From NCBI GenBank assembly GCA_965231215.1, contig OZ246423.1:864001-928000 (forward strand): a stretch of DNA of 64,000 bases, given 5' to 3'. This document shows positions 5,665-44,376 of the stretch, piece by piece (the first letter of the stretch is position 1; the number at the start of each line of letters is the position of its first letter). Source of the DNA: Candidatus Altimarinota bacterium (GTDB lineage: Bacteria > Patescibacteriota > Gracilibacteria > UBA4473). Under the pieces are notes generated by a model. It made no database searches. It was not told the DNA's origin and saw only the letters and a program-made list of their open reading frames with translations. Position numbers and translations under genes: made by a program.

Positions 5665-8301
5665 ATGTCTGAAGAAAACCATCTGATTACCGAACGAAAA
5701 GCTAAAATACAGGCCTGGAATGATCTAGGTTTTCCTGGGTATGCCAAAGATTTTGAACGCACTCACACAGCAGCTGAAGCCGTTGAAGACATAAAATCTA
5801 ATGAAGGCGCCTTGCGCGAGGCTCCAGCCATTATGGCTAAACCTCAGCAGGCTCGATCTATGGCCGGTCGTATTGTGGCGAGCCGTGAGATGGGGAAGTT
5901 GGCCTTCCTCAAAATTCGGGATGTATCAGGGAATTTTCAGATTTGTTTGGCCCAAGATTTATTAGGAGCTAATTTCAAAGCGTTATTAAAAGCGTTAGAT
6001 TTGGGAGATTACTGTGGTTTTGCCGGAGAGTTCTTCACGACCAAAAACGGAGAACCTACCCTTATGGCGGTGGAAGTGACGCCTCTTTCAAAGTCGCTAC
6101 GACCGCTGCCCGAAAAATGGCATGGATTAACAGACAAAGAACACTGTTACCGAGAAAGAAACTTAGATCTAATTTCAAATCAAGAATCATTTAAACGGTT
6201 TAAGATTCGGAGTGAAGTGGTAAAAGCCGTACGTAATTTTTATGAAGCACGGGACTTTATAGAAGTGGAAACCTCTATCTTGCAAGCTCAAGCTGGAGGC
6301 GCTATGGCCAAAACCTTTGAAACGCATCACAATGCCTTGGATCATAATTTTCATCTGCGGATTGCGCTAGAACTACCGCTCAAAATAGCCTGCTCAGGAG
6401 GATTTGAACGCATCTTTGAAATCGGAAAATGTTTTCGGAATGAAGGAACCGATCCGTCTCATTTGCAGGAATTTACCATGCTTGAATGGTATGCGGCCTA
6501 CGTCAGCTTTGAACAAAACATGGAATGGAATGAGCAAATGCTGCGTGAAATTGCGACCAAAGTTTTTGGCAAAACGGTTTTCACCGTCAAAGACAAAAAT
6601 GAAACAGATCATGAGATTGATTTTGAAAAGCCCTTCGCCAAGAAACGTTTTGCTGATCTACTCAAAGAGTACGCTGACTTTGATATGTTTAGCGCGAGTG
6701 ATGATGAGGTTCGGGCTAAAGCGGCGGAAGTAGGCGTGGAACAAATCGATGGAGTGGGACGAGCTAATTTGCTCGATGATATCTATAAAAAAACCGCTCG
6801 GCCAAATCTGATTCAGCCAACTTTTGTGTTAGATTACCCAGAAGATCTCAAACCTTTAGCTGCTCCAAACGGAGACGGAACGGCCAGCTGTTTCCAAGTG
6901 CTCATTGCCGGGTGGGAGGTGATTAATGCCTATGGAGAATTGATTGATCCACAAATCCAAAGAGCCTTGTTGGAAAAACAAGCCGAATTCAAAGCCAGTG
7001 GAGACGATGAAGCTATGGAGGTAGATGAAGTTTTTCTCAAAGCCATGGAACACGGATTCCCGCCAATGGCTGGGCAAGGAATGGGGATTGATAGAATTGT
7101 GACCCTGCTTACCGGACAAGACAATCTCCGAGAAGTAGTACTCTTCCCAACGATGCGTCCAGAAACGGGTAAACAAGATAAGGAAACCAAGCTCGCTACA
7201 GCTATTATCAATACCGATCTGATATCTGAAGACTGGCAGGCGCTCAACTCTGTGGGGCATCTGTGTGCGGCCTTTGGAGCGAGAGAAGGAAAATCTCTGT
7301 TCTATCAAGACGAAGTAGAAACCAAAGACGGAAAGACCATTAAACTTAACACCACTCAGGCCATTATGATTAAGGGATGTGACAAAAATCTATCCCTCAT
7401 TGACCTAGCTCAAAAAGCGAAAGCACAAGGATTGCAAGTAGCTGAATTTACCCGAGAAATGCTAGCAACATCAGATGACGCTAAAGTGGCCGAAATTACC
7501 AAAACTAAAAACCTATCTGAGATAGATTTTTACGGCATATTAGTATTTGGTAAAAAATCTGTAGTGGAGAATATGACTAAGGAGTTTGAACTATTAAGAA
7601 GCTTAGAAAATGCTTCCACTAGTCATCCCCATGAAGATGGGGATCCAGATAATAAGAATTCCGATTTAGAAGTAGATTCCCGTATGCACGGAAATGACAA
7701 TTCAGGAGGCGGTTTTGAAATTTTCGATGGAGAATTTGATAGGGATAAAGCTTGGAAGATGGTTAAGTCCCGATGTGATTGGGCCCTCCAAAGACACTTG
7801 GCTCATGTGGCGGTCAGTATGGAAGCTTTAGCGGTGCATCTAGGACACCAAGACCAAAAGGAAACCTGGTACTTAACGGGGCTGCTACATGATATTGACT
7901 GGAATCAAACTATTGAAACGCCAGAACTTCATTGTGGCGAACCTACCATGCAGTACCTGGAAGCCAACGGAGTGCCAGAAGTAATCTACAGAGGAATTCA
8001 ATCTCATCACGAAATCTTTGATCTTCCAATAGATTCAGATCTGCGGAAAGGGCTTTTAGCCGTCGATGAAATCTCTGGATTTGCCGTAGCCGTAGCCCAA
8101 ATGCGCCCCACCAAAATGGAGGGAATTTCACCAAAATCCATTACCAAAAAAATGAAAGACAAGCAGTTTGCAGCTAGCGTAAGCCGTGAGCATATGAAAT
8201 ACTGTGAGCCTTATTTTAACATCCCCGTATCAGAATTTTTACAGATCCTCATTCCCGCCTGGGAGGCTATTGCTCAAGACTGGAAGTTAGTAGGCGAATA
8301 G
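5665..8301 (+). CDS. lysS: class II lysyl-tRNA synthetase fused to DUF2000-like and HD domains
   Basis: OB-fold anticodon domain, RPLPEKWHGL, FRNEG, EFTMLEWY, GMGIDR, LFPTMR; about 380 extra C-terminal aa including GLLHDID. Confidence 0.95.
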   Translation: MSEENHLITERKAKIQAWNDLGFPGYAKDFERTHTAAEAVEDIKSNEGALREAPAIMAKPQQARSMAGRIVASREMGKLAFLKIRDVSGNFQICLAQDLLGANFKALLKALDLGDYCGFAGEFFTTKNGEPTLMAVEVTPLSKSLRPLPEKWHGLTDKEHCYRERNLDLISNQESFKRFKIRSEVVKAVRNFYEARDFIEVETSILQAQAGGAMAKTFETHHNALDHNFHLRIALELPLKIACSGGFERIFEIGKCFRNEGTDPSHLQEFTMLEWYAAYVSFEQNMEWNEQMLREIATKVFGKTVFTVKDKNETDHEIDFEKPFAKKRFADLLKEYADFDMFSASDDEVRAKAAEVGVEQIDGVGRANLLDDIYKKTARPNLIQPTFVLDYPEDLKPLAAPNGDGTASCFQVLIAGWEVINAYGELIDPQIQRALLEKQAEFKASGDDEAMEVDEVFLKAMEHGFPPMAGQGMGIDRIVTLLTGQDNLREVVLFPTMRPETGKQDKETKLATAIINTDLISEDWQALNSVGHLCAAFGAREGKSLFYQDEVETKDGKTIKLNTTQAIMIKGCDKNLSLIDLAQKAKAQGLQVAEFTREMLATSDDAKVAEITKTKNLSEIDFYGILVFGKKSVVENMTKEFELLRSLENASTSHPHEDGDPDNKNSDLEVDSRMHGNDNSGGGFEIFDGEFDRDKAWKMVKSRCDWALQRHLAHVAVSMEALAVHLGHQDQKETWYLTGLLHDIDWNQTIETPELHCGEPTMQYLEANGVPEVIYRGIQSHHEIFDLPIDSDLRKGLLAVDEISGFAVAVAQMRPTKMEGISPKSITKKMKDKQFAASVSREHMKYCEPYFNIPVSEFLQILIPAWEAIAQDWKLVGE
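7622..7698. repeat. palindromic element (GTCAT...ATGAC, RPE/dRS3-like) inserted in frame in lysS
   Basis: GTCATCCCCATGAAGATGGGGATCCAG...GATTCCCGTATGCACGGAAATGAC, translated as SHPHEDGDP...DSRMHGND. Confidence 0.75.
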
Positions 8302-9597: not shown

Positions 9598-9648
9598 CCT
9601 TTTATTTATCAGTTTTTGTGGGGTTTCTAAAAAAGCTCACAAAAGTCC

Positions 9649-9676
9649 TTGACACTCGGTACTAGATTCATATTAT
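9649..9676 (+). promoter_or_regulatory. promoter of rplP operon
   Basis: TTGACA-16bp-TATTAT followed by CGGCCGG. Confidence 0.75.
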
Positions 9677-9681
9677 CGGCC

Positions 9682-9758
9682 GGCTTTAATACGGTATTGC
9701 TACGGACATTACACGTTTTAGCAGCGATCCAAATTTACAGGGGTCAACTATTAAAGCC
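9682..9758 (+). ncRNA. candidate structured 5' leader of rplP operon
   Basis: 10-bp closing stem GGCTTTAATA/TATTAAAGCC enclosing two hairpins (TGCTA/TAGCA; GATCC/GGGTC). Confidence 0.55.
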
Positions 9759-9784
9759 AATTCGTTTAGTGCTTTTATTTAGCT

Positions 9785-10201
9785 ATGCTTCAACCTAAAA
9801 AAACCAAATTCCGAAGACTGCACCGACTACGTTCTCAGCGTAAAGGAGTAGCCAATCGTGGCAATAAAATTGCCTTCGGGGAAGTAGGACTTAAAGCTAC
9901 TACAGCTGGTGAGATTAACGCTCGTCAGATTGAAGCGGCTCGTCGAGCGATTGCTCGGGCTGTAAAACGAGGAGGAAAAATTTGGATTCGAGTTTTTCCA
10001 GACAAAGTACTTACCGCTAAATCAGGGGAAGTACCAATGGGTTCAGGGAAAGGAGCTCCAGATAAATGGGTAGCTCAGGTGCTTCCAGGAAAAGTCCTTT
10101 TCGAAATGGGAGGAGCCGATCCAGAACTTATGAGAGAGGCACTAAAACTCGCTTCATACAAATTATGCGTGAAGTGCAAAGTAGTAACTAATGAAATCTA
10201 G
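9785..10201 (+). CDS. rplP: 50S ribosomal protein L16
   Basis: [34 protein letters not shown]. Confidence 0.98.
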
Positions 10202-10204
10202 GCA

Positions 10205-10396
10205 ATGACTATTCAAGAATTACGTCAGCTCACTCCAAGCAAGTTGTTAGCTCAACTAAAGAAAACTCGTAGAGAGCTAGCCGTTACTCGTTTTCATATT
10301 AAAACGGGTCAAAGCCAAGATACAGCGAGCATCAAAAAATTAAAAAAAGTGATTGCTCAGATCCAAACGCTCATCAATAACCTTAAGCAAAAATAA
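10205..10396 (+). CDS. rpmC: 50S ribosomal protein L29
   Basis: ELR...RF...GQ...IKKLKKVIAQIQT; synteny. Confidence 0.93.
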   Translation: MTIQELRQLTPSKLLAQLKKTRRELAVTRFHIKTGQSQDTASIKKLKKVIAQIQTLINNLKQK

Positions 10397-10635
10397 TGAT
10401 TAGTAAAAAAGGGACGGTTGTGAAAAAATCAGGGGATAAAACTATCCGAGTTGAGGTAAATGAAAGACGACCTCATCCTAAGTACAAGAAACAATACCGA
10501 ATCACTACTAATTACTTAGTACATGATGAAGAAAATAAAGCTAAAGATGGAGATGAAGTGGTAATTACTCAAGCTCGACCAACGTCTAAAAAGAAATCTT
10601 GGAACCTAACTTCTATAGAGAAAAGCGCTCAATAA
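10396..10635 (+). CDS. rpsQ: 30S ribosomal protein S17
   Basis: [27 protein letters not shown]. Confidence 0.97.
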
Positions 10636-11003
10636 TGATTCAACATATGACTCGTCTTCGTGTAACAGATAACACTGGTGCTAAGTGGGCACAGTGTGTA
10701 AAAGTCTTGGGAGGCTCTAAGAGAAGATACGCCCAAGTAGGAGACGTAATTGTTGTGGCCATTAAATCAGCCGCTCCTAAAGGAGTTGTAAAGAAAAAAG
10801 CGGTAGAAAGAGCCGTGATCGTAAGACAGACTAAAAAAATGAAAAGACCAGATGGGTCTTATATAAGCTTTGATGATAACGCTGTTGTGATCATCAACCA
10901 GCAAGGGCAACCTAAAGGAACACGTGTTTTCGGGCCTGTGGCTCGTGAACTTCGTTCTAAAGGGTACCAACCAATACTTTCTAAAGCGCCTGAAGTACTT
11001 TAA
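10635..11003 (+). CDS. rplN: 50S ribosomal protein L14
   Basis: MIQ...[28 protein letters not shown]; ATG at 10635. Confidence 0.98.
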
Positions 11004-11006
11004 AAC

Positions 11007-11372
11007 ATGAAATTCAGAATAGGAGACGACGTCGTTGTGATTACAGGGAGTGATAAAGGGAAAACCGGAAGCATTACCCGTATCCTAGAATCAGAAAACA
11101 AAGTGATTGTTGAAGGCATAAACATGAAAACAAAACACGTAAAAGGACGAGATGGAGTACCAGGAGAAAAAGTTCAATTTGCGGCTCCTATTCAGGCTTC
11201 AAATCTAGCGGTTATAGACGCTAAGACAAAAAAGCCAAGCCGAATAGGATACCTTATCGACAAAAATGGTAACAAAACTCGAATTACTAAAGCTTCTGGT
11301 CAAGAAGTGGTAAAAGCCGCTAAAAAAGAAAAGACCAAAGAAGACAAAGGACCTAAAACTATTAAAGCGTAA
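11007..11372 (+). CDS. rplX: 50S ribosomal protein L24
   Basis: GDDVVVITGSDKGKTG KOW motif, VEGIN. Confidence 0.97.
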   Translation: MKFRIGDDVVVITGSDKGKTGSITRILESENKVIVEGINMKTKHVKGRDGVPGEKVQFAAPIQASNLAVIDAKTKKPSRIGYLIDKNGNKTRITKASGQEVVKAAKKEKTKEDKGPKTIKA

Positions 11373-11378
11373 TTAAAA

Positions 11379-11975
11379 ATGACTGCAAAAGCCAAGAAAA
11401 CTTCCAACGCACATAAGTCACTCCTATTAGAGCGATATGCAAAAGAAATTGCGCCTCAACTTCAAAAAGATTTGGGGATGAAAAACGTAATGGAAGTGCC
11501 TAAGATTGAAAAAGTATGTGTGAATGTAGGTATGGGATCATACCTTCAAAGACTTGGGACGAAAGATTACAGCTTAGTAGAACAAACGCTGCTCCAAATT
11601 ACAGGACGAAAACCTGTCCTGAGAAAAGCTCGACTTTCGGTGTCGAACTTTAAACTCAGAGAAGGGATGCCTGTGGGATTAAGTGTGACGCTTCGAAAAG
11701 ACGAAGCTTACATCTTCCTGGATAAAATAATTAACATTGTGTTTCCTCGGGTGCGAGGCTTCCGTGGTATAAAACGAAACATCTTTGATAAAAGTGGAAA
11801 CTGTTCCTTCGGTTTTGCTGATCACTCTGTATTTCCAGAGATCGATCTAGAAGATGCTCGAAAAGCTCACGGAGTCCAAGTAACCGTTGTTACAAATGCA
11901 AGAGAATCAGCCCATGCCGAAAAATTAATGGAAGCTATGGGTTTCCCTTTTATAAATAATAAGGCTAACAATTAA
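11379..11975 (+). CDS. rplE: 50S ribosomal protein L5
   Basis: [29 protein letters not shown]. Confidence 0.98.
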
Positions 11976-11986
11976 TATTTAACTTT

Positions 11987-12241
11987 ATGGTACGAAAAGC
12001 CCTCCTGATCAAACAACAAAAAATGCTCGCACGAGCTATGGCTAAACGTGAAGATGGTACTTACAACCAAAAAAAACACGCCACAAAGCCAAAAGACAAG
12101 TACAAAACTCGAGCCTACAATCGGTGTAAAGTCACCGGACGCTCTGGTGGATATATGCGAGATTTTGGAATCTCACGTTGTTTGTTCCGGGAATTGGCTG
12201 AGAAAGCTGAAATTCCAGGAGTTCGTAAGAGTAGCTGGTAA
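11987..12241 (+). CDS. rpsN: 30S ribosomal protein S14 (lacks the full 4-Cys zinc motif)
   Basis: NRCKVTGR...[17 protein letters not shown]. Confidence 0.96.
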
Positions 12242-12249
12242 GCTGCTGT

Positions 12250-12309
12250 AACTCCAAAGCCGGTTAAGCCAGGCCAGGAGTTCACTCAATAATAAACTTA
12301 ATGGCTTAA
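12250..12309 (+). ncRNA. candidate pseudoknot RNA between rpsN and rpsH
   Basis: stem AACTCC/GGAGTT plus GCC/GGC; loop TTAAGCCA is complementary to downstream TGGCTTAA. Confidence 0.45.
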
Positions 12310-12335
12310 ACATTTAAACACTTAAACGCTCAAAA

Positions 12336-12710
12336 ATGGTAGACCCAATTGGTGACTTTCTAACTCGAATGCGTAATGCTCAGATGGCTGGGCAAGCAAC
12401 CGTTGTAGCTCCTTACTCAAAACTAAAAGAGCAAATTGCAAAGGTAATGCTAAAAAATAAATTCTTGGACAACGTTGAGGTTGTGGAGAACGGGAACAAA
12501 AAAGATCTCAAAGTAACTTTGCCTGAGAAATCACTCACGCTAAAACGAGTGTCTCGACCAGGGCAAAGAATCTACTGCGGAAGCCAAGATATTCGAAAAG
12601 TGCTTAATGGTCTTGGAATCGCTATTGTTTCGACTTCAAAAGGAGTTATTACTGGGTACGAAGCAAGAAAGCTTGGCGTCGGAGGTGAAATTTTATGTGA
12701 AATCAGCTAA
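12336..12710 (+). CDS. rpsH: 30S ribosomal protein S8
   Basis: DPIGDFLTRMRNA, RVSRPGQRIY, STSKG, GGE. Confidence 0.98.
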   Translation: MVDPIGDFLTRMRNAQMAGQATVVAPYSKLKEQIAKVMLKNKFLDNVEVVENGNKKDLKVTLPEKSLTLKRVSRPGQRIYCGSQDIRKVLNGLGIAIVSTSKGVITGYEARKLGVGGEILCEIS

Positions 12711-12727
12711 CTATATAACTATTTAAA

Positions 12728-13279
12728 ATGTCTAGAGTAGGTAATAAGCCAGTCGTTATCCCCGAAGGAGTAGAAGTACAATTGAGTGACAATGTGCTTA
12801 CAGCCAAAGGGCCCAAAGGAGAACTGTCTCAAAGTTTTGAACCCGCATACGTGGAAGTCAAAATAGAAGGGAATGAAATTTTAGTTTCTCGAAAAAACGA
12901 AACGAAAGAGGCTAAATCTAGACATGGCCTATACCGAAGTTTATTTGAAAACATCGTAGTCGGAGTCAAGACAGGATTCTCTAAATCGCTTGAAGTTCGC
13001 GGGGTTGGATACCGAGTAAATCCAAAAGGAAAAGCTCTGGAATTCAATCTAGGATACTCTCATTCTATTACTTACGATCTACCAGAAGGCGTAGAAGTAA
13101 AATTTGATGAACAAAACCAAAATATCTTTACGCTCTCCGGAGCTGATAAACAGTTAGTGGGACAAACCGCCGCTAACATTCGAAAACTCAGAAAACCTGA
13201 ACCTTACAAAGGAAAAGGTATCAGATACTCAGATGAACATGTAATTATTAAAGCTGGTAAATCTGCTAGCGCTGCTTAA
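12728..13279 (+). CDS. rplF: 50S ribosomal protein L6
   Basis: [26 protein letters not shown]. Confidence 0.98.
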
Positions 13280-13284
13280 TTAAA

Positions 13285-13626
13285 ATGAAATCTATTATAA
13301 AACAGGCACGACTAAAAGCACGAGCAAGGCGTACGCACGCTAAAGCTCGAATTGCCCAACGACCAAGACTCGTAGTATTCAGATCTGGTAAAGCTATTTA
13401 CGCTCAGATTATAGATGATATTCAGAACAAAGTGCTCTGTGGAACCTCAAGCCTTAAAAGCAAAAAATCAGGGATTGAAGCTGCCGCTGAAGTAGGAAAA
13501 GCGCTTGCAGAAATGGCTAAAAAAGCCAAAGTCACTGAAGTCGCTTTTGACCGAAATGGTTATCAATATCACGGGCAAGTGAAAGCGCTCGCTGAAGCCG
13601 CTCGAGAAGGGGGTCTTAAATTTTAA
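13285..13626 (+). CDS. rplR: 50S ribosomal protein L18
   Basis: [27 protein letters not shown]. Confidence 0.98.
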
Positions 13627-13670
13627 ACCGCTCAATAAACTAATTAAAAAATTCTATACTGCCGGTAGGC

Positions 13671-13707
13671 CAACTACCAACTAATAACTACCTACTACCA
13701 ACTAATA
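13671..13707. repeat. degenerate heptamer tandem repeat
   Basis: CAACTAC CAACTAA TAACTAC CTACTAC CAACTAA. Confidence 0.65.
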
Positions 13708-13708
13708 A

Positions 13709-14470
13709 ATGTCAGAAGAAAAAAATGACGCTCCCGTAACGCCTGAGATGGCGGCTCCAGAAGCCACAGAAAACACTGAAAGCACTGAAGCTGCACAAGC
13801 TCCAGCTCAAGGTGGTGATAAAGCTCAAAATGATGCCAAAGACGGTAAAAAAGATCGTCGAGATGGGAACCGTCGTGGACGAGGACGACGTGAAAACCGA
13901 GGAGACAGACAACCAAAAGAATTTGAAGAATCAATCATTCAGATTGACCGAGTAACCCGAGTAACCAAAGGAGGACGACAGCTTCGATTTCGAGTTTCTG
14001 TAATCATCGGAGATCAAAAAGGACGTGTTGGATTTGGAATTGGAAAGTCTTCTGAAGTAATGACTGGAGTACAAAAAGCGATTACTCAGGCTAAAAGAAA
14101 CCTGATTACAGTACCCATCTTTGAAGACACGATTCCTCACAGTGTAACCGCTAAATTTAAATCTTCTAAAGTATTTTTGCTTCCAGCACCAGAAGGTAAA
14201 GGAGTAATTGCTGGAGGAGCCGTGCGTAAAGTTTTGGAACTGGCTGGTATTAAAAATGCCCTTTCTAAAATTCACGGATCACGAAACAAAATTAATACTA
14301 CTTACGCCACTATTCAAGCCCTTCAAATGCTACAAAACAGAGCGCCACATAAAAGCGCTGAAGAGGCTGAAGACACCCCCAAAGAAGAAAAAGCCGAAGC
14401 TAAAGCCGCTGATAAAAAGCCAGCTAAAAAAGCTCCGGCTAAAAAAACGACTAAAAAGAAAGACGCTTAA
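13709..14470 (+). CDS. rpsE: 30S ribosomal protein S5 with long N- and C-terminal extensions
   Basis: RVTRVTKGGR, GDQKGRVG, PAPEGKGVIAGG. Confidence 0.98.
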   Translation: MSEEKNDAPVTPEMAAPEATENTESTEAAQAPAQGGDKAQNDAKDGKKDRRDGNRRGRGRRENRGDRQPKEFEESIIQIDRVTRVTKGGRQLRFRVSVIIGDQKGRVGFGIGKSSEVMTGVQKAITQAKRNLITVPIFEDTIPHSVTAKFKSSKVFLLPAPEGKGVIAGGAVRKVLELAGIKNALSKIHGSRNKINTTYATIQALQMLQNRAPHKSAEEAEDTPKEEKAEAKAADKKPAKKAPAKKTTKKKDA

Positions 14471-14488
14471 TCTAAATTATTCATTCTC

Positions 14489-14956
14489 ATGAAAGTTCAT
14501 CAAACCGCTCCGAATCTAAAAAAACCAGCTCGAAAAAGAAAAGGCCAAGGAAACGCTACAGGTAATGGTACCTATGGTGGTCGTGGTATGAATGGACAGA
14601 ATGCACGAGCCGGAGGCGGTGTGCGACAAGGTTTTGAAGGAGGTCAAACCCCCTTGATCCAACGAATGCCAAAACGACGAGGATTTAAAAACCCAAACCG
14701 AGTAGAAACCCAAGCTGTTGATTTAGGGCAGATTGAAGCCGTATATAAAGACGGGGAAAGCGTAAACCTCGGTACTCTTATTGAAAAAGGGTTGGTCAAT
14801 AATCCTAATAAAAAAGTAAAAATTCTCGCTTCAGGGGAACTGAGCAAAAAAGTAACCGTAGAAGGTGTTCCAGCGTCTAAAACAGCCGTAGCCGCTATTG
14901 AAAAAGCTGGCGGAAAATTTGTCGCTCCAAAAGTAGAAAAAGCCGAAGAAAAATAA
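14489..14956 (+). CDS. rplO: 50S ribosomal protein L15
   Basis: GRGMNGQNAR, GFEGGQTPL, PKRRGF. Confidence 0.98.
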   Translation: MKVHQTAPNLKKPARKRKGQGNATGNGTYGGRGMNGQNARAGGGVRQGFEGGQTPLIQRMPKRRGFKNPNRVETQAVDLGQIEAVYKDGESVNLGTLIEKGLVNNPNKKVKILASGELSKKVTVEGVPASKTAVAAIEKAGGKFVAPKVEKAEEK

Positions 14957-14981
14957 GACTTATACTAAAGAACTAAATCAG

Positions 14982-15004
14982 AAACGCCTTCGGGCGTTTT
15001 TTTT
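14982..15004 (+). terminator. intrinsic terminator after rplO
   Basis: AAACGCC-TTCG-GGCGTTT plus T run. Confidence 0.85.
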
Positions 15005-15095
15005 ATTTCGCAAAGAAGTATTGACATTTTTTCAAAAATATTTATTTAAAATATAATAAAAGAAACATCAAAAGAAAAAACCTTTAATCAACCTT

Positions 15096-15941
15096 TTGAT
15101 GTTGTCTTTGATGCTTGGAATTGCGGCCTCAGTACAAATGGGAACTGTTAGTGTAGAAAACTACCATGCGGTTCACTCTAATGTGATACGTCGTTATAAG
15201 ATCTATAAATCACGTAATATTACGCCTCAATCCACAAGCCGAACCTCAGTGGATCTAAAACCTAAAACGACTCAAAAAAAGAAGCCTTTGAATCTACCTT
15301 GGGACGGGCATTTTTCAGCCAAAAATTTTACAACCTCTACGGATAGAATTGATTTGGAGGGGATTAAGGGAGCTCTTAAAGCGTCAATCTTGATGCTACC
15401 GAAAAACCACACAGGAACTTTAAAAGAACTTGAAATCAGAAATGTAACACATGTATCAAGAGGGCTCGCTAACTCTAAAAAGATTATTCTCCATACCGAT
15501 TCTGTAGAAACAGAGGCAGAGTTGAAGTCAGTGTTTGTCCATGAAATGGGGCACATTGTGGATTTAGGATATTTAAAGGGGCAAAATGGGAACGTTTCTA
15601 CCTTTAAAGACGGGAGACGAGTTATTTATACGGATGATCCGAGTTTGATTTTTTATACCATTTCTTGGCAGGATGAAAAGACGCGTAAAAAAGGAACCCT
15701 CAGAAATGATTTTGTTTCCGGTTACGCTATGCAGAGTCCGTTTGAAGATTTTGCGGAGAGCTATATTTTTTATCGATTACACGGTGAAAAGTTTCGAAAA
15801 ATTGCCAAAGAATCTGACGCCCTTGATCAGAAATACAACTTTATGAAATACCAGGTATTTGCCGGAGTGGAGTTTCAGAAAGAAAAAAATGGGAAGTTTC
15901 TTCACAACCTGATCTGGGATGCTACATTAGTAAAGTCTTAA
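15096..15941 (+). CDS. secreted HExxH zinc metallopeptidase
   Basis: hydrophobic N-terminus; VHEMGHIVD and FVSGYA...EDFAESY. Confidence 0.75.
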   Translation: MMLSLMLGIAASVQMGTVSVENYHAVHSNVIRRYKIYKSRNITPQSTSRTSVDLKPKTTQKKKPLNLPWDGHFSAKNFTTSTDRIDLEGIKGALKASILMLPKNHTGTLKELEIRNVTHVSRGLANSKKIILHTDSVETEAELKSVFVHEMGHIVDLGYLKGQNGNVSTFKDGRRVIYTDDPSLIFYTISWQDEKTRKKGTLRNDFVSGYAMQSPFEDFAESYIFYRLHGEKFRKIAKESDALDQKYNFMKYQVFAGVEFQKEKNGKFLHNLIWDATLVKS

Positions 15942-21175: not shown

Positions 21176-21634
21176 ATGAAATACTGGTTGTTTAAGTCGG
21201 AGCCTAGTTGTTATTCAATAGACGATTTAAAACGCGATAAAGTGGAACACTGGGATGGAGTACGAAACTACCAAGCCCGAAATATGCTCAGAGATGAATG
21301 CGGGGTAGGGGATTTAATAATTTATTACCACTCTAGCTGTAAAGTGCCCGCCGCTGTAGGCATAGCTGAAGTGGTGACAAATGGGTATCCAGATCATACG
21401 GCTTTTGACCCAAATTCCGCCCATCCAGATTTATCTTCTGATCCCGAAAATCCACGGTGGTATATGGTAGACGTAAAGTTTGTGTCTAAGTTTGCCCGTC
21501 CTGTTAGCCTCAAAGCCATGAAAGACAGGGCAGAATTAGCTGATATGCGGTTGCTACAAAGAGGGAATAGATTGAGCTTGTTTCCCATAGAAAAAGCCCA
21601 TTTTGAGCTGATTAAACATTTGGGGAGGGCATAA
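21176..21634 (+). CDS. EVE domain protein
   Basis: YWLFKSEP, WDGVRNYQARN, YHS, NPRW. Confidence 0.95.
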   Translation: MKYWLFKSEPSCYSIDDLKRDKVEHWDGVRNYQARNMLRDECGVGDLIIYYHSSCKVPAAVGIAEVVTNGYPDHTAFDPNSAHPDLSSDPENPRWYMVDVKFVSKFARPVSLKAMKDRAELADMRLLQRGNRLSLFPIEKAHFELIKHLGRA

Positions 21635-21658
21635 AAAAAGCGCCAGATGGCGCTTTTT
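21635..21658. terminator. bidirectional terminator between the EVE gene and rpsC
   Basis: AAAAAGCGCC-AGAT-GGCGCTTTTT between convergent genes. Confidence 0.85.
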
Positions 21659-21681: not shown

Positions 21682-22326
21682 TTATTCCCCTAGTTTTTCG
21701 TTTTTGAATACGAGTCCGTGATATACCCATACTTTGATCCCGATCATCCCGTACATGGTAGGAGCTTCGGCTGTAGCGTAATCAATGTTAGCTCGCAGGG
21801 TATGGAGTGGCACGGTTCCATGGTTGTAGGTTTCTTTTCGGGCAATGTCTACTCCGTTGAGACGTCCAGAAACAATTACTTTTACCCCTTTTACTCCAGA
21901 ATCTTTAGCTTTATCAACGGCCATTTTTACGACTCGTCGGTACGGGAAACGTCGACTGATTTGGTCGGCGATATTATCGGCAATAAGCTGAGCGTTAGCT
22001 TCTGGTTTTCGGATTTCTTGTACATTGGCTTCAAAGATTTCACCAAAGGTAGCTTTAAGATCTTTTGAGAGTTGTTGGATTTCTTCTCCACCTCGTCCTA
22101 CGATCATTCCTGGTTTAGCGGCGTGAAGGACAACACTAATTTTTCCAGCACTTCTAATGATTTCAATCTTAGAAACACCAGCGTTTTTGTAACGCTTTTT
22201 GAGGTATTTTTTGATCTCTAGATCTTGTAGAAATTTATCTTGGTAATCTCGTTTTGCGTACCATCGAGAATTCCAGGTACGAGTGATTCCAATACGAAGC
22301 GAATGCGGTGAAACTTTTTTTCCCAT
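21682..22326 (-). CDS. rpsC: 30S ribosomal protein S3
   Basis: MGKKV.P..LRIG, KPGMIVG, SGRLNG, PLHTLRANID. Confidence 0.98.
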   Translation of the reverse strand: MGKKVSPHSLRIGITRTWNSRWYAKRDYQDKFLQDLEIKKYLKKRYKNAGVSKIEIIRSAGKISVVLHAAKPGMIVGRGGEEIQQLSKDLKATFGEIFEANVQEIRKPEANAQLIADNIADQISRRFPYRRVVKMAVDKAKDSGVKGVKVIVSGRLNGVDIARKETYNHGTVPLHTLRANIDYATAEAPTMYGMIGIKVWVYHGLVFKNEKLGE

Positions 22327-22658
22327 TAGGCTTTTTTAGGTTCTAGAGTAATAGAAATATTAGAAGTAGGTTTTTGGATTGGTAGAGCTCTTCCTCGAGC
22401 TGAAGGTTGGTATCTTTTGTAGGCAGGACCTTTATTTATAATGATTTCCTTAATCACTAAGTTTTCTCTTTTTTGATTATCATTGTTTTCAGCATTAGCT
22501 ACGGCTGAAGTCAGTACTTTGAACAGTACTTGCGCCGCTTTTTTGGGGGTAAATCGAAGAATATCAAGGGATTCTTCCGCGTTTTTTCCACGAATGAGTC
22601 CAGCCACAATATTGGCTTTCCTTGGGGATATCTGAATTCGTCTGAGATGTGCTTTCAT
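22326..22658 (-). CDS. rplV: 50S ribosomal protein L22
   Basis: SPRKA..VA..IRG, SAVANAEN, ARGRA. Confidence 0.98.
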   Translation of the reverse strand: MKAHLRRIQISPRKANIVAGLIRGKNAEESLDILRFTPKKAAQVLFKVLTSAVANAENNDNQKRENLVIKEIIINKGPAYKRYQPSARGRALPIQKPTSNISITLEPKKA

Positions 22659-22685
22659 TTAAGTTTTAGTTGGACTGATTTTTAA

Positions 22686-22955
22686 TTATTTAGCGAGTTT
22701 TCCTCCATGAGCTCGGAACCGTCTGGTTGGAGCAAATTCTCCGAGTTTATGACCTACCATGAATTCTGTACAGAATACGGGGATATGTTCCTTCCCATTG
22801 TGAACACCGAAAGTGTGACCAATAAATTCAGGAGAAATAGTAGATTTTCTAGACCAAGTTTTAATCACTCGTTTTTGTCCAGAAGCGTCCATCTCCTTAA
22901 TTTTTTTAAGAAGAATTGGATCAATATACGGGCCTTTTTTTGCGGAACGGGTCAT
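22686..22955 (-). CDS. rpsS: 30S ribosomal protein S19
   Basis: [26 protein letters not shown]. Confidence 0.98.
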
Positions 22956-22972
22956 GAATGTAAATTAATTAA

Positions 22973-23818
22973 TTATTTCTTTTTGGCTCTGTGACGAGAG
23001 ACAATAATAAGTTTATCACTGTTTTTATGTCGTGCTCGGGTTTTAACGCCTAGAGCGTGAGCACCCCATGGTGTTTTTGGGTATTTCATCCCGATAGGAG
23101 AACCTCCTTCACCCCCTCCATGTGGATGGTCATTCGGGTTCATGGCTTTACCACGAACGGTAGGTTTACGACCAGCATTTCTTACTCTTCCAGCTTTACC
23201 AATTCGCTGTTGGTTGTGTTCTTCGTTAGAGACAATACCAATAGTGGCAAAGTTGGTTTTTTCAACGTATCTAATTTCTCCAGAAGGGAGTTGTACTTGC
23301 GCTTTTTCTCCGTCCAGAGAAACGAGGGTCGCATATTGACCAGCCGCACGTACGACTTGTCCGCCTTTGTTTGGAGTAATTTCTACGTTGTGGATACTGT
23401 ATCCTACGGGAATGCTCTGAAGTTGCATTCGGTTTCCTTCTTTAATCTTAGCTTTAGTATCTGTAACGGTCTCATCTCCTACTTTGGCGTTTTTATGAGC
23501 CAGAATATACCTTTTGTCACCATCCTTGTAGTGGACAAGTGCGATAAAACACGTTCGTTTTGGATCGTATTCAAGAGCAGCGATCTTCCCTGGGATTCCC
23601 AGTTTTTCAGTTCCGCTAAAGTCTACTTTTCTCCAGTGAGAGCGAGTACCACCCCCTCGGTGTCGAATGGTAATAGTTCCTTTAGATCTACCAGCTAGTT
23701 TTTTACTCTTTTTGAGAAGCGCTTTGTTGGTAGGTTTTTTGGCTGTGACCTGAGCATTATCAGTATAGCTCGTGTCTCTTTGTCCATTCGTAGTCGGTTT
23801 TCGATTTACAATAGCCAT
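22973..23818 (-). CDS. rplB: 50S ribosomal protein L2
   Basis: RHRGGG, EYDP, VRG.AMNP.DHPHGGGEG. Confidence 0.98.
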   Translation of the reverse strand: MAIVNRKPTTNGQRDTSYTDNAQVTAKKPTNKALLKKSKKLAGRSKGTITIRHRGGGTRSHWRKVDFSGTEKLGIPGKIAALEYDPKRTCFIALVHYKDGDKRYILAHKNAKVGDETVTDTKAKIKEGNRMQLQSIPVGYSIHNVEITPNKGGQVVRAAGQYATLVSLDGEKAQVQLPSGEIRYVEKTNFATIGIVSNEEHNQQRIGKAGRVRNAGRKPTVRGKAMNPNDHPHGGGEGGSPIGMKYPKTPWGAHALGVKTRARHKNSDKLIIVSRHRAKKK

Positions 23819-24105
23819 TATTTCATATCATTAAAGTTGAGAGTGCTCCCAGACTTGAGCGTTACAGTTGCTTTTTTGTAAGCCGCTCGTTTTTCAATAA
23901 GTCTTCCACGTCCAACCATTCTTTCTTTTGGTCGAGCGTTAGTGATGTTTACCGCTACGATGTCTACACCGTAGAAATGTTCTACGGCCATCTTAACATC
24001 TTTTTTATTAGCTTCTGGGTGTACTTGGAAAGTATATTTCCCAGGCGCAGCCACCGTTTTTTCTGTGACGATTGGAGCGATAAGAACGTTATCTGTACGG
24101 ATCAT
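23818..24105 (-). CDS. rplW: 50S ribosomal protein L23
   Basis: P.VTEK, YTFQV..ANK, YKKATVTL. Confidence 0.96.
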   Translation of the reverse strand: MIRTDNVLIAPIVTEKTVAAPGKYTFQVHPEANKKDVKMAVEHFYGVDIVAVNITNARPKERMVGRGRLIEKRAAYKKATVTLKSGSTLNFNDMK

Positions 24106-24107
24106 GA

Positions 24108-24743
24108 TTAGTTACTTTTAGATAAGAAAGTTTGTTCTACTACTTCAAGGGAATCCTCTAGGAAGATTACTTGGTCAGCGAGCAATACATCGTATGGGTT
24201 TAGGTAAGAAGCTAGAATTGTGCTTACCCCTGGAATATTGTTACAAGATTTTTCAAAGTTCTCGTCTTTAGCTCCAAGGACGAAAAGATGTTTTTTACCT
24301 TCTGGAAGTTTTCCCAGTAGTGAAACCATCGTTTTAGTTTTTGGAGTTTCAAGTTTAAGATTTTGCAGTACTGATACTTTTTCATCTTTTACTTGAGATG
24401 AGAGCGAAGCAAAGAGGGCCGCTCTTCGTTCTTTTTTGGGCATAGACTTCTCAAAGTGAGCGGTGTTTCGTGGACCATGAGTGACCCCACCACCCCGAAG
24501 GATGTTTGTGCTTCGAGCGCCTCTACGGGCGTTCCCTGTCCCTTTTTGTCGAAAGAGTTTTTTAGTAGAATAGGCGACTTCTCCTCGAGTCTTAGTATGA
24601 GCGATAGGATTTCTTCGGTTGGCGAGTCTCATAACAATCGCACGATGCATAAGATCGGCATTGATTTTGGCACCAAAGATTGCGTCAGACACGTCCTTGC
24701 TTCCTTTTTTACTTCCGTCAGCCGCGTATAGGTTAACTTTCAT
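24108..24743 (-). CDS. rplD: 50S ribosomal protein L4
   Basis: TKTRGEV, RQKGTGNAR, RGGG..HGP; ATG at 24743. Confidence 0.97.
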   Translation of the reverse strand: MKVNLYAADGSKKGSKDVSDAIFGAKINADLMHRAIVMRLANRRNPIAHTKTRGEVAYSTKKLFRQKGTGNARRGARSTNILRGGGVTHGPRNTAHFEKSMPKKERRAALFASLSSQVKDEKVSVLQNLKLETPKTKTMVSLLGKLPEGKKHLFVLGAKDENFEKSCNNIPGVSTILASYLNPYDVLLADQVIFLEDSLEVVEQTFLSKSN

Positions 24744-24747
24744 GAGA

Positions 24748-25338
24748 TTAGTCTGCGCGAATAAATACAAAACTATTTTTAGCTCCAGGAACAGCCCCTT
24801 TTAGAGCAATCAGATTATTTTTTGAGTCAATGTGAATCACTTTTACTCCTCGGAGAGTTACTTGATCACTTCCATAATGCCCCGGAAGTTTTTTCCCTTT
24901 GTTTACTCGGGCTGGTTTAGCACAAGTACCAATAGATCCAGGTTCACGATGATGATGAGAACCATGAGTTTCAGGCCCTCGAGAAAAGTTGTGTCGTTTA
25001 ATGACTCCGGCAAAACCACGCCCTTTAGAGGTTCCAGTGATTTTAACGGTTTCCACGCCTTCAAGTTGAGCGACCGTCATTTTGTCTCCCTTTTTGCAGG
25101 CTTGAGTGTCATCAAGTTGTAGTTCTTGAATGTGTTTATAGTTCTTGTTCGTGTTCTTTCTTTGTTTCGTACGAGGAAAACCAGCAAGTACCGCCGCACT
25201 GTATCCATCACGGTCTTGAGTTTTTACTTGAAGCACGGTGTTTTCAGGCGCTTCGAGTAGTGTCACAGGTGTTACTTTCCCAGATTCTGGGCAAATCACT
25301 CGAGACATTCCGACTTTTCGGGCAATAATTCCTTTCAT
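24748..25338 (-). CDS. rplC: 50S ribosomal protein L3
   Basis: KVGMS, DGY, GTSKGRGFAG, HGSHHHREPGSIG, KGAVPG. Confidence 0.98.
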   Translation of the reverse strand: MKGIIARKVGMSRVICPESGKVTPVTLLEAPENTVLQVKTQDRDGYSAAVLAGFPRTKQRKNTNKNYKHIQELQLDDTQACKKGDKMTVAQLEGVETVKITGTSKGRGFAGVIKRHNFSRGPETHGSHHHREPGSIGTCAKPARVNKGKKLPGHYGSDQVTLRGVKVIHIDSKNNLIALKGAVPGAKNSFVFIRAD

Positions 25339-25357
25339 GGTTTAAATCTTATTTTAT

Positions 25358-25403
25358 GAGGGGATGTGTGAGAGGTTGTAAAGGTTCCAACATCACGCCT
25401 CGG
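25358..25403 (-). ncRNA. candidate structured element between rpsJ and rplC
   Basis: minus strand GAGG-C-GTGA-T-GTTG...CAAC..TCAC...CCTC nested stems. Confidence 0.4.
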
Positions 25404-25426
25404 AAATTCAATTGATTTTGTATAAT

Positions 25427-25789
25427 TTAGGCGGTGAGCATTTTAATTTCTACGTCTACTCCGCCAGGAAGGCTTAGATTTTGTAACGATTCGATCGTTT
25501 TTGGTGTAGGTTCTTTAATATCAATGAGCCGTTTATGAGTACGAATTTCGTACTGATCACGAGCGTCTTTATTAACAAAAAATGATCGATTCACTGTGTA
25601 TTTCTTAATTTTAGTAGGCAACGGAATCGGGCCAGAAACAATAGAACCGTTTCTTTCAGCCGTTTCTACAATTGACTTAGCGGCTTCATCAATGATGGTG
25701 TAATCGAATGATCTAACGATAATTCTTACACGAGAAACTGTAGTTTCTTTAGTTTTTGCCGAATTCTTGGTAGTTGATTTTGTTGCCAT
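25427..25789 (-). CDS. rpsJ: 30S ribosomal protein S10
   Basis: [10 protein letters not shown]...[15 protein letters not shown]; ATG at 25789. Confidence 0.98.
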
Positions 25790-25813
25790 GTGCCTATACA
25801 AAAGAGCCAGCGG

Positions 25814-44326: not shown

Positions 44327-44354
44327 TTGACAAAAAATTCCTCACTCCTAAACT
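44327..44354 (+). promoter_or_regulatory. promoter of rplY
   Basis: TTGACA-16bp-TAAACT followed by CGCGCGG. Confidence 0.7.
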
Positions 44355-44376
44355 CGCGCGGCTTATTTGAAGAATA

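What the first reader, a model, noticed from the sequence alone, without database searches (positions are those of the whole stretch)
9682..9758. Candidate new ribosomal-protein leader: three-way junction ahead of rplP
Seen: starting about 6 nt after the -10 box, a perfect 10-bp stem (9682-9691/9749-9758) closes two hairpins and ends 26 nt before the ATG. Known: r-protein operons are often autoregulated by rRNA-mimicking leaders. rplP is normally operon-internal, so I know of no described leader for it. Inference: a lineage-specific r-leader that arose with the operon split; the ligand could be any protein of this operon.
Basis: partly seen in the sequence, partly recalled or inferred. Interest (0 to 1): 0.7.

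Follow-up and report, generated by a model that had tools for sequence, protein, structure and literature searches.

The report
Structured leader of rplP operon mRNA
A folded stretch of RNA at the very start of a ribosomal-protein messenger in an uncultivated Peribacteria bacterium is real and kept by selection, but it is shared with only one sister species, so it is a plausible though unproven local control element.

Summary
The perfect 10-bp stem (9682-9691/9749-9758) exists and closes two hairpins, 26 nt before the rplP ATG. It starts at the predicted +1 of a near-consensus promoter. Its 5' arm begins with GGCTTT. That is the generic start-site motif of this genome's rRNA, tRNA and r-protein promoters, not an rplP-specific signal.

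The junction occurs in 2 of 43 family genomes, G000 and sister species G004. There it is strongly conserved: 70 of 79 columns outside hairpin 2, against 27 of 68 four-fold sites in rplP. Hairpin 2 is replaced by a different hairpin. No pair covaries, but two sequences give no power.

Three other species of the genus carry an unrelated structured leader of 136-139 nt. In 26 of 39 family loci the leader is only 10-22 nt. The rplP promoter is family-wide, so the leader did not arise with the operon split.

There is no Rfam match, no rRNA similarity, no repeat copy, no terminator and no conserved small ORF.

Best reading (about 0.4): a clade-specific translational operator bound by a trans factor, possibly an r-protein of the operon, whose closing stem also hides the mRNA 5' end. 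Main rival: a stability element only. The start site and any binding are untested.

The parts
9649..9654 (+). -35 hexamer TTGACA of the rplP promoter
   Evidence: 11 of 12 consensus matches. A TTGAC[A/T] -35 is present in 39 of 41 family rplP loci.
9671..9676 (+). -10 hexamer TATTAT
9677..9681 (+). G+C-rich discriminator CGGCC, 5 nt
   Evidence: The same 5-nt G+C-rich spacing is seen in the family rplP loci and in 22 promoters of the own genome.
9682..9687 (+). GGCTTT, the generic R-G-C-T start-site motif. The predicted +1 is 9682 or 9683; this is an inference, with no RNA data.
   Evidence: The same motif lies at the same distance from the -10 at the 16S and 23S rRNA promoters, 6 tRNA units, and the S10, L25 and infA promoters.
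9682..9691 (+). P1, 5' arm (GGCTTTAATA)
   Evidence: Nine of 10 pairs are kept unchanged in G004. Pairing probability of nt 2-7 is 1.0, reached by 0 of 200 shuffles.
9692..9696 (+). Junction J1/2, CGGTA
   Evidence: Four of 5 bases identical in G004 (alignment A3).
9697..9724 (+). P2 hairpin: 6 bp, a bulged C, 4 bp, and the loop ATTACAC. It contains G-U pairs.
   Evidence: The loop is identical in G004 at 7 of 7 bases. Seven of the 10 modelled P2 pairs are unchanged; the other three fall on alignment gaps in G004. The two substitutions and one deletion in G004 are not compensatory.
9726..9745 (+). P3 hairpin: 5 bp with a 10-nt loop. This is the variable arm.
   Evidence: In G004 a different 9-bp hairpin stands here. 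Only 11 of 33 alignment columns are identical.
9749..9758 (+). P1, 3' arm (TATTAAAGCC)
9759..9784 (+). A/U-rich single-stranded tail up to the ATG, with no Shine-Dalgarno-like run
   Evidence: Of the 30 nt before the ATG, 26 are identical in G004, against 8-15 of 30 for nine other genes of the operon. No SD is visible.
9785..10201 (+). rplP (L16), first gene of the transcription unit
   Evidence: Pfam Ribosomal_L16, E 9e-46.
10205..14956 (+). Rest of the unit. rpmC, rpsQ, rplN, rplX, rplE, rpsN and rpsH were checked by Pfam. rplF, rplR, rpsE and rplO were named by position and by eye.
   Evidence: for the first seven. ORF list. Orthologues in G004.
14980..15001 (+). Terminator-like hairpin followed by a T run, after rplO

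Best explanation
The element is the 103-nt 5' untranslated leader of the rplP-to-rplO ribosomal-protein mRNA of a Peribacteria (CPR) bacterium.

Transcription probably starts at G9682 or G9683. The first 10 bases pair with 9749-9758 (P1). P1 closes a three-way junction made of a sequence-conserved hairpin P2 (loop AUUACAC) and a freely varying hairpin P3. A conserved, unpaired A/U-rich tail of 26 nt then leads to the start codon.

I read it as a clade-specific cis-regulatory operator. A trans-acting factor, most plausibly one of the r-proteins encoded downstream, would recognise the conserved junction, the P2 loop and the tail, and lower translation or stability of the operon mRNA when in excess. 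P1 would at the same time bury the 5' end.

Shown: the structure is predicted in both species, it is non-coding, its position relative to the promoter is fixed, and it is under strong selective constraint. Inferred: the start site, the existence and identity of a binding factor, and the direction of regulation.
For: 1. Position. The element lies directly after a near-consensus promoter and before 12 r-protein genes.

2. Purifying selection between G000 and G004.
- Four-fold sites of rplP are 27 of 68 identical, that is saturated.
- Leader columns 1-41 are 38 of 41 identical and columns 75-112 are 32 of 38 identical (Fisher p 3e-10).
- The 30 nt before the ATG are 26 of 30 identical, against 8-15 of 30 for nine other genes of the same operon.
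- The S10 and L25 leaders of the same promoter class diverge right after the GGCT motif.

3. Unpaired bases are conserved (P2 loop 7 of 7, J1/2 4 of 5, tail). P3 is replaced by another hairpin at the same place. This is the pattern of a recognised RNA with a spacer arm.

4. Both species fold into a three-way junction with z -3.4 and -4.0, 0 of 200 shuffles each. The opposite strand gives z -1.6. The G-U pairs fit an RNA of the + strand.

5. There is no conserved small ORF, no repeat copy and no terminator.

6. The abstract of PMC7247131 says that unrelated r-leader structures can serve the same r-protein. An unrelated leader in the sister clade therefore does not exclude this reading.
Against: - The element was found in only 2 of 43 family genomes.
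- Zero of 20 pairs covary. The few changes in P2 are not compensatory.
- Three other species of the same genus have an unrelated leader, and 26 of 39 family loci have leaders of 10-22 nt. Leader-based feedback is therefore not a general need of this operon.
- There is no sequence likeness to the organism's own 23S, 16S or 5S rRNA. The observed score was reached by 126, 190 and 195 of 200 shuffles respectively. A permissive Rfam scan gave nothing.
- The structure ends 26 nt before the ATG and does not cover the start region.
- The start site is predicted only, and no RNA data exist.
- The 5' arm's first six bases are conserved for promoter reasons.
Confidence: 0.4

Rival explanations
1. The element is a stability element only. 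P1 sequesters the 5' end of a long leader and protects the mRNA from 5'-end-dependent decay. The hairpins are passive and no specific factor binds.
For: - P1 begins at the predicted +1.
- The 5' end is paired more than in shuffles in 5 of 12 long rplP leaders of the family: L002, L003, L014, L018 and L019, each reached by at most 6 of 200 shuffles.
- The same holds in 7 of 22 transcripts of this promoter class in the own genome, against about 1 expected. These include the 16S and 23S leaders.
Against: - A passive stem does not explain the conservation of unpaired bases (P2 loop, junction, 26-nt tail) against saturated neutral sites.
- Seven of the 12 long leaders, including those of the three sister-clade species, do not pair their 5' end more than shuffles.
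- Short leaders have no structure at all.
Confidence: 0.25
2. The element is a cis-regulatory RNA that senses something other than an r-protein: a small molecule, another RNA, or a non-ribosomal protein.
For: The same conservation pattern as for the best explanation applies. Nothing identifies the ligand.
Against: - No known riboswitch or other Rfam family matches, even at E up to 10.
- Its occurrence in only two species is unusual for metabolite sensors.
- It is single-copy in the genome, so there is no regulon.
Confidence: 0.12
3. The conserved blocks act at the DNA level, as promoter-proximal or operator sequence for a transcription factor. The RNA fold would then be incidental.
For: The first bases are demonstrably a promoter-linked motif. 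The perfect inverted repeat also exists in the DNA.
Against: - The arms are 57 bp apart.
- Conservation runs to +103, up to the ATG.
- The fold is strand-asymmetric, z -3.4 against -1.6, and has G-U pairs.
- P3 stays a hairpin although its sequence changes.
Confidence: 0.08
4. There is no function. The element would be a chance inverted repeat in a neutral leader insertion.
For: - Perfect 10-mer inverted repeats are common: 16 hits in the window against 8.2 in shuffles.
- With flanks the fold scores z -0.78.
- Leader length is highly variable in the family.
Against: Seventy of 79 columns outside P3 are identical in G004, while four-fold sites (27 of 68), other gene starts (8-15 of 30) and other leaders have diverged.
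Confidence: 0.05

Closest known systems
Ribosomal-protein leaders (r-leaders), e.g. the candidates of Eckert and Weinberg 2020 (PMC7247131; I saw the abstract, the outline and a term search)
   Same: It is a structured domain in the 5' UTR of an mRNA for r-proteins. It is narrow in distribution and unrelated in structure to the leaders of other lineages.
   Different: It is known from only two genomes and has no covariation support. No rRNA likeness was found. The terms L16, rplP and uL16 do not occur in that paper's main text. Its supplementary tables could not be seen.
E. coli spc operon operator for S8 and S10-operon leader for L4 (recalled from textbook knowledge, not tested here)
   Same: They give feedback control of the same block of genes by one of its own products.
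   Different: As recalled, the S8 site lies at an internal gene start (rplE) and the L4 site precedes rpsJ. Here the unit starts at rplP, and the S10 half lies on the other strand with a 19-nt leader.
5'-terminal stabiliser stem-loops of bacterial mRNAs, such as the ompA type (recalled)
   Same: The stem begins at or next to the first transcribed base.
   Different: Here unpaired loop, junction and tail bases are conserved as well, which a mere stabiliser does not need.
Type-2 rplP leader of the sister clade in the same genus (L004, L005, L006)
   Same: It has the same promoter and the same gene, is 136-139 nt long, and has a 5' domain 47-50 of 52 identical against four-fold sites 27-47 of 67-70. 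Seven of its 34 predicted pairs show compensatory change.
   Different: Neither sequence nor fold is alignable with the window's leader. The covariance model of the window's type does not hit these genomes. Its 5' end is not paired above chance.

Membership tests
Ribosomal-protein leader (autoregulatory r-leader) | Lies in the 5' UTR, downstream of the start site, of an mRNA encoding r-proteins | tested here: met
   The promoter is at 9649-9676 and rplP and further r-protein genes follow. The start site is predicted, not mapped (no RNA run).
Ribosomal-protein leader (autoregulatory r-leader) | Consistently present upstream of the orthologous gene across a lineage | tested here: not met
   The covariance model R1 hits 2 of 43 family genomes and 2 of 5 genomes of the genus. 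Twenty-six of 39 family leaders are 10-22 nt.
Ribosomal-protein leader (autoregulatory r-leader) | Secondary structure supported by covariation | tested here: inconclusive
   Zero of 20 pairs change on both sides, but there are only two sequences. P3 is replaced by another hairpin.
Ribosomal-protein leader (autoregulatory r-leader) | Likeness to the rRNA site of the regulating protein | tested here: not met
   Local alignment to the own 23S, 16S and 5S was no better than shuffles: 126, 190 and 195 of 200 reached the score. No rRNA or 5S model hit appeared in a permissive Rfam scan. Structural mimicry without sequence likeness was not tested.
Ribosomal-protein leader (autoregulatory r-leader) | Binds an r-protein of its operon and lowers expression | not testable with these tools
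   This needs binding and reporter assays.
Any described RNA family (Rfam 15) | Covariance-model match | tested here: not met
   There were 0 matches at gathering score in the window. Only two chance-level hits to eukaryotic families appeared at E up to 10 in 9600-9850.
5'-terminal stabiliser stem-loop | Stem starts within a few bases of the mRNA 5' end | tested here: inconclusive
   P1 starts at the conserved R of the start-site motif, but the start site is not mapped.
5'-terminal stabiliser stem-loop | Lengthens mRNA half-life | not testable with these tools
Intrinsic terminator / attenuator | G+C-rich hairpin followed by a U run | tested here: not met
   No terminator-like site was found between 9600 and 9800. 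P1 is followed by AAUUCG.
Miniature repeat element with terminal inverted repeats | Several copies in the genome | tested here: not met
   blastn-short of the leader against the 1.33-Mb genome finds only the leader itself plus matches of 20 nt or less. There is one covariance-model hit per genome.

The most novel reading that the evidence does not exclude
This would be the first r-leader of a Candidate Phyla Radiation bacterium, and the first to head an operon that begins with rplP (L16). It would be a three-way-junction operator recognised by one of the twelve r-proteins encoded downstream. The sister clade of the same genus would have solved the same task with an unrelated leader of 136-139 nt that shows covariation. 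Feedback operators would then turn over completely within a genus, on top of a fixed promoter.
Probability: 0.33. Interest if true: 0.55.

Novelty: new member of a known kind. Interest (0 to 1): 0.38.

Why it matters
If the leader is a protein-binding operator, it would show that CPR bacteria use leader-based feedback on ribosome synthesis, even with reduced genomes and, in this organism, no visible Shine-Dalgarno use. It would also show that such operators can be gained and replaced within a single genus.

It would add a new RNA-protein pair for a gene block whose control is known mainly from E. coli.

Whether or not it regulates, the comparison yields a usable picture of Peribacteria promoters: TTGACA, 16 nt, TAnnnT, a 5-nt G+C-rich discriminator, then RGCT. 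It also gives a predicted start site for their rRNA, tRNA and r-protein genes. That helps annotation of organisms for which no transcript data exist.

Tried and rejected
- Rfam. The whole window at gathering score gave nothing. The region 9600-9850 at E up to 10 gave only two chance hits to eukaryotic families.
- RNA evidence for the start site. No RNA holder is listed. The one read-laying run gave assembled contigs only: one run covered the stretch identically, and the other laid nothing. No start, end or strand can be read from that.
- More relatives of the leader.
  - The genome-contig scan with L16 was swamped by universal peptide words. It kept 80 of 596 hits, mostly unrelated phyla. It was useful only for the organism name, Candidatus Peribacteria.
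  - The metagenome-contig scan with L29 gave one locus, L130, whose leader reads (by eye) almost the same as L120's.
- Repeat or mobile element: rejected.
- Small ORF in the leader: rejected. A 49-codon TTG frame and a 24-codon antisense frame in G000 have no counterpart in G004.
- rRNA mimicry by sequence: no support. A 5S-like three-way junction was considered, because L5 and L18 are in the operon. No 5S model hit appeared, and the 5S alignment was below the shuffle mean.
- A tRNA anticodon-loop likeness of the P2 loop and a pseudoknot between loops and tail were considered by eye only. The candidate tail bases differ in G004, so both were dropped.
- RNAalifold on the two-sequence MAFFT alignment did not return the junction, because the P3 region is misaligned. 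I therefore counted a named structure for P1 and P2 only.
- Homology of the type-1 and type-2 leaders: none was seen by eye or by the covariance model.
- Literature. 'ribosomal leader' with 'rplP' gave 0 papers. 'Peribacteria' with 'promoter' gave 5 irrelevant papers. 'Candidate Phyla Radiation' with 'ribosomal protein' and 'cis-regulatory RNA' gave 0. I know of no printed description of this leader on the strength of these searches only. The supplements of PMC7247131 were not seen.

Full report
**What is there**

The window is part of a single-contig 1.33-Mb genome with 40% G+C. Titles of related public records name the lineage Candidatus Peribacteria, in the CPR/Patescibacteria.

The sequence reads GGCTTTAATA at 9682-9691 and its exact reverse complement at 9749-9758. 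A promoter-like site precedes it: TTGACA at 9649-9654, a 16-nt spacer, and TATTAT at 9671-9676. It is the best in the 9-kb scan, with 11 of 12 consensus matches.

RNAfold closes two hairpins with this stem:
- P2 at 9697-9724: 10 pairs with one bulge, and the loop AUUACAC.
- P3 at 9726-9745: 5 pairs and a 10-nt loop.

The stem ends 26 nt before the ATG of rplP at 9785.

Pfam confirms L16, L29, S17, L14, L24, L5, S14 and S8 downstream. The ORFs that follow run to 14956, and a terminator-like hairpin lies at 14980-15001. Upstream lie a LysRS-like gene and a trypsin-like peptidase gene.

The S10 half of the usual cluster (S10, L3, L4, L2, L22, S3) lies on the opposite strand at 25801-21682.

**Is it more than chance?**

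By energy alone the answer depends on the frame.
- With flanks, z is -0.78.
- Cut at the stem, z is -3.44, with 0 of 200 shuffles folding as well. The opposite strand gives z -1.60. The cut was chosen on the stem, so this test is biased towards the result.
- Perfect 10-mer inverted repeats with a short loop are common: 16 hits in the window against 8.2 in shuffles.

The case therefore rests on comparison with relatives.

**The promoter and the 5' arm**

I collected the rplP upstream region of 41 loci from the same family. Thirty-nine of them have TTGAC[A/T], 16 nt, TAnnnT, a 5-nt G+C-rich stretch, and then R-G-C-T, usually RGCTTTT. One of these, L015, was corrected by eye. One locus had no match and one had no start found.

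The promoter is present also where rpsC still lies upstream. Six of 23 family loci have rpsC within 1.5 kb, with gaps of about 0.2-1.25 kb. Six of six loci from other families of the class have rpsC 60-100 nt upstream. In three of those a promoter-like pair of hexamers is visible by eye.

In the own genome, 22 promoters carry the same -10, 5-nt spacing and RGCT arrangement. They comprise:
- 6 tRNA units, confirmed with ARAGORN;
- the sites 354 nt upstream of the 16S gene and 278 nt upstream of the 23S gene;
- the S10 operon;
- genes I recognise by eye as L25, IF-1, L31, L33, L35, L28, S15, S12, S1 and rpoC (only S10 was checked by Pfam).

The first six bases of the stem's 5' arm are therefore the generic start-site motif of the translation-apparatus promoters. 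The alternation of G and A at its first position fits an initiating purine at 9682 or 9683. This is an inference, because no RNA run holds the region.

**Distribution of the junction**

Leader length, measured from the R to the ATG, falls into these classes:

| Leader length | Loci (of 39) |
|---|---|
| 10-22 nt | 26 |
| 31-80 nt | 7 |
| 103-139 nt | 5 (all in the window's genus) |
| 237 nt | 1 (doubtful) |

A further genome, G015, has a different leader of 33 nt. The short leaders have no predicted structure.

Only G004 has an alignable leader; its L16 is 94% identical to the window's. A covariance model of P1, P2 and the flanking sequence was built and run over 43 family genomes. It hits G000 and G004 at E about 1e-22 and nothing else below E 0.2. 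The leader is single-copy in the genome.

The other three species of the genus (L004-L006) carry an unrelated leader of 136-139 nt. Seven of its 34 predicted pairs show compensatory change.

The junction is thus a two-species feature. The own promoter of rplP is family-wide, so the leader did not arise with the split.

**Selection**

Between G000 and G004, neutral sites are saturated. Third codon positions of rplP are 46% identical, and four-fold sites are 27 of 68 identical.

Against this background:
- Leader columns 1-41 (P1 5' arm, junction, P2) are 38 of 41 identical.
- Columns 75-112 (P1 3' arm and tail) are 32 of 38 identical.
- The P3 region is 11 of 33 identical.

Two controls show that this is special to the rplP leader.
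- The 30 nt before the start codons of nine other genes of the operon are 8-15 of 30 identical, against 26 of 30 for rplP.
- The S10 and L25 leaders, which belong to the same promoter class, are identical only through the start-site motif and then diverge.

A recent transfer cannot explain this, because saturated coding sites and the diverged P3 lie directly beside the conserved blocks.

G004 also folds into a three-way junction, z -4.03, with a 9-bp P3 of different sequence. No pair covaries, 0 of 20. The two substitutions and one deletion in P2 are not compensatory. The conserved positions include unpaired ones: the P2 loop at 7 of 7, the junction at 4 of 5, and the tail.

**What it does**

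The conservation of unpaired bases and of the tail up to the ATG, next to a free-running spacer arm, is what a specifically recognised RNA looks like. The position before twelve r-protein genes makes feedback by one of them the most economical guess, which I put at 0.4.

This is weakened by several points:
- the narrow distribution;
- the lack of any rRNA likeness;
- the fact that most relatives run the same operon with a leader of 10-22 nt.

The abstract of PMC7247131 notes that unrelated leaders can serve one r-protein, so the unrelated type-2 leader is not decisive either way.

The main rival, at 0.25, is a pure 5'-end-protecting structure. The 5' end is paired more than in shuffles in 5 of 12 long rplP leaders. 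The same holds in 7 of 22 transcripts of this promoter class in the genome, against about one expected, and these include both rRNA leaders. In that test the 60-nt windows run into tRNA or coding sequence. This may well be one role of P1, but it does not explain the conserved loop, junction and tail.

The other readings are less likely, for the reasons given under the rival explanations: another ligand, a DNA-level operator, or no function.

The organism seems not to use Shine-Dalgarno pairing. The 16S 3' end reads ACCGCCTTA where the canonical core (recalled) has CCTCC, and none of the 12 genes has a purine run upstream. Control would then have to act on an unstructured A/U-rich landing site. 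That fits the conserved tail.

**Verdict**

The element is a real, selectively maintained, structured 5' UTR. It is new to Rfam and, as far as three searches show, to the literature.

It is a candidate r-leader without covariation, binding or start-site evidence, and it is restricted to two known species. It is a new member of a known kind, of moderate interest.

Noticed in passing
window 9649-9687, 25841-25808 (minus strand, S10 operon) and 44327-44364 (L25); genome-wide list: There is a promoter class with TTGAC[A/T], 16-17 nt, TAnnnT, a 5-nt G+C-rich discriminator and then RGCT. It occurs at 22 sites in the genome: 6 tRNA units, the 16S and 23S leaders, and r-protein, IF-1 and rpoC-like genes. 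It looks like the stable-RNA and translation-apparatus promoter of this lineage, with a fixed start site.
   Followed up: partly
L004:1364-1503, L005:1365-1503, L006:1909-2050 (minus strand): The sister clade of the same genus has an unrelated rplP leader of 136-139 nt. Its 5' domain is nearly invariant (47-50 of 52), and two variable hairpins carry compensatory changes (7 of 34 pairs). On covariation it is a better-supported structured RNA candidate than the window's.
   Followed up: partly
own genome C1:853347-853400 (16S 3' end); window gene starts 9785-14489: The 16S 3' end reads ACCGCCTTA instead of the canonical anti-SD core. None of the 12 genes of the rplP unit has a Shine-Dalgarno-like run upstream; A-rich sequence precedes the ATGs. 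Many promoter-proximal genes have leaders of 16-29 nt.
   Followed up: partly
window 21682-25801 (minus strand) and 21635-21658: The S10 half of the r-protein cluster (S10, L3, L4, L2, L22, S3) is inverted relative to the rplP half and converges on it about 6.7 kb away. A perfect inverted repeat with A and T runs lies just beyond rpsC and looks like a two-way terminator. An EVE-domain gene (21176-21634) lies next to it.
   Followed up: partly
window 12242-12335: A 94-nt spacer between rpsN and rpsH contains an inverted repeat seen by eye. G004 has only 36 nt here, so the insert is species-specific.
   Followed up: no
window 14957-15941: After rplO come a terminator-like hairpin (14980-15001), a promoter-like site (15029-15057) and a weak metallopeptidase-like ORF. 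The secY-adk-map genes usual at this place do not follow. L30 (rpmD) is not seen between S5 and L15.
   Followed up: no
window 5665-8301: An 878-aa ORF joins a class II Lys/Asp/Asn-type tRNA synthetase core and anticodon-binding OB fold to a DUF2000 domain and a further C-terminal part without a Pfam match.
   Followed up: no
window 13709-14470: The S5 ORF is 253 aa as listed, but the match to G004 starts only at residue 66. The real start may lie further downstream, or the N-terminal extension is species-specific.
   Followed up: no
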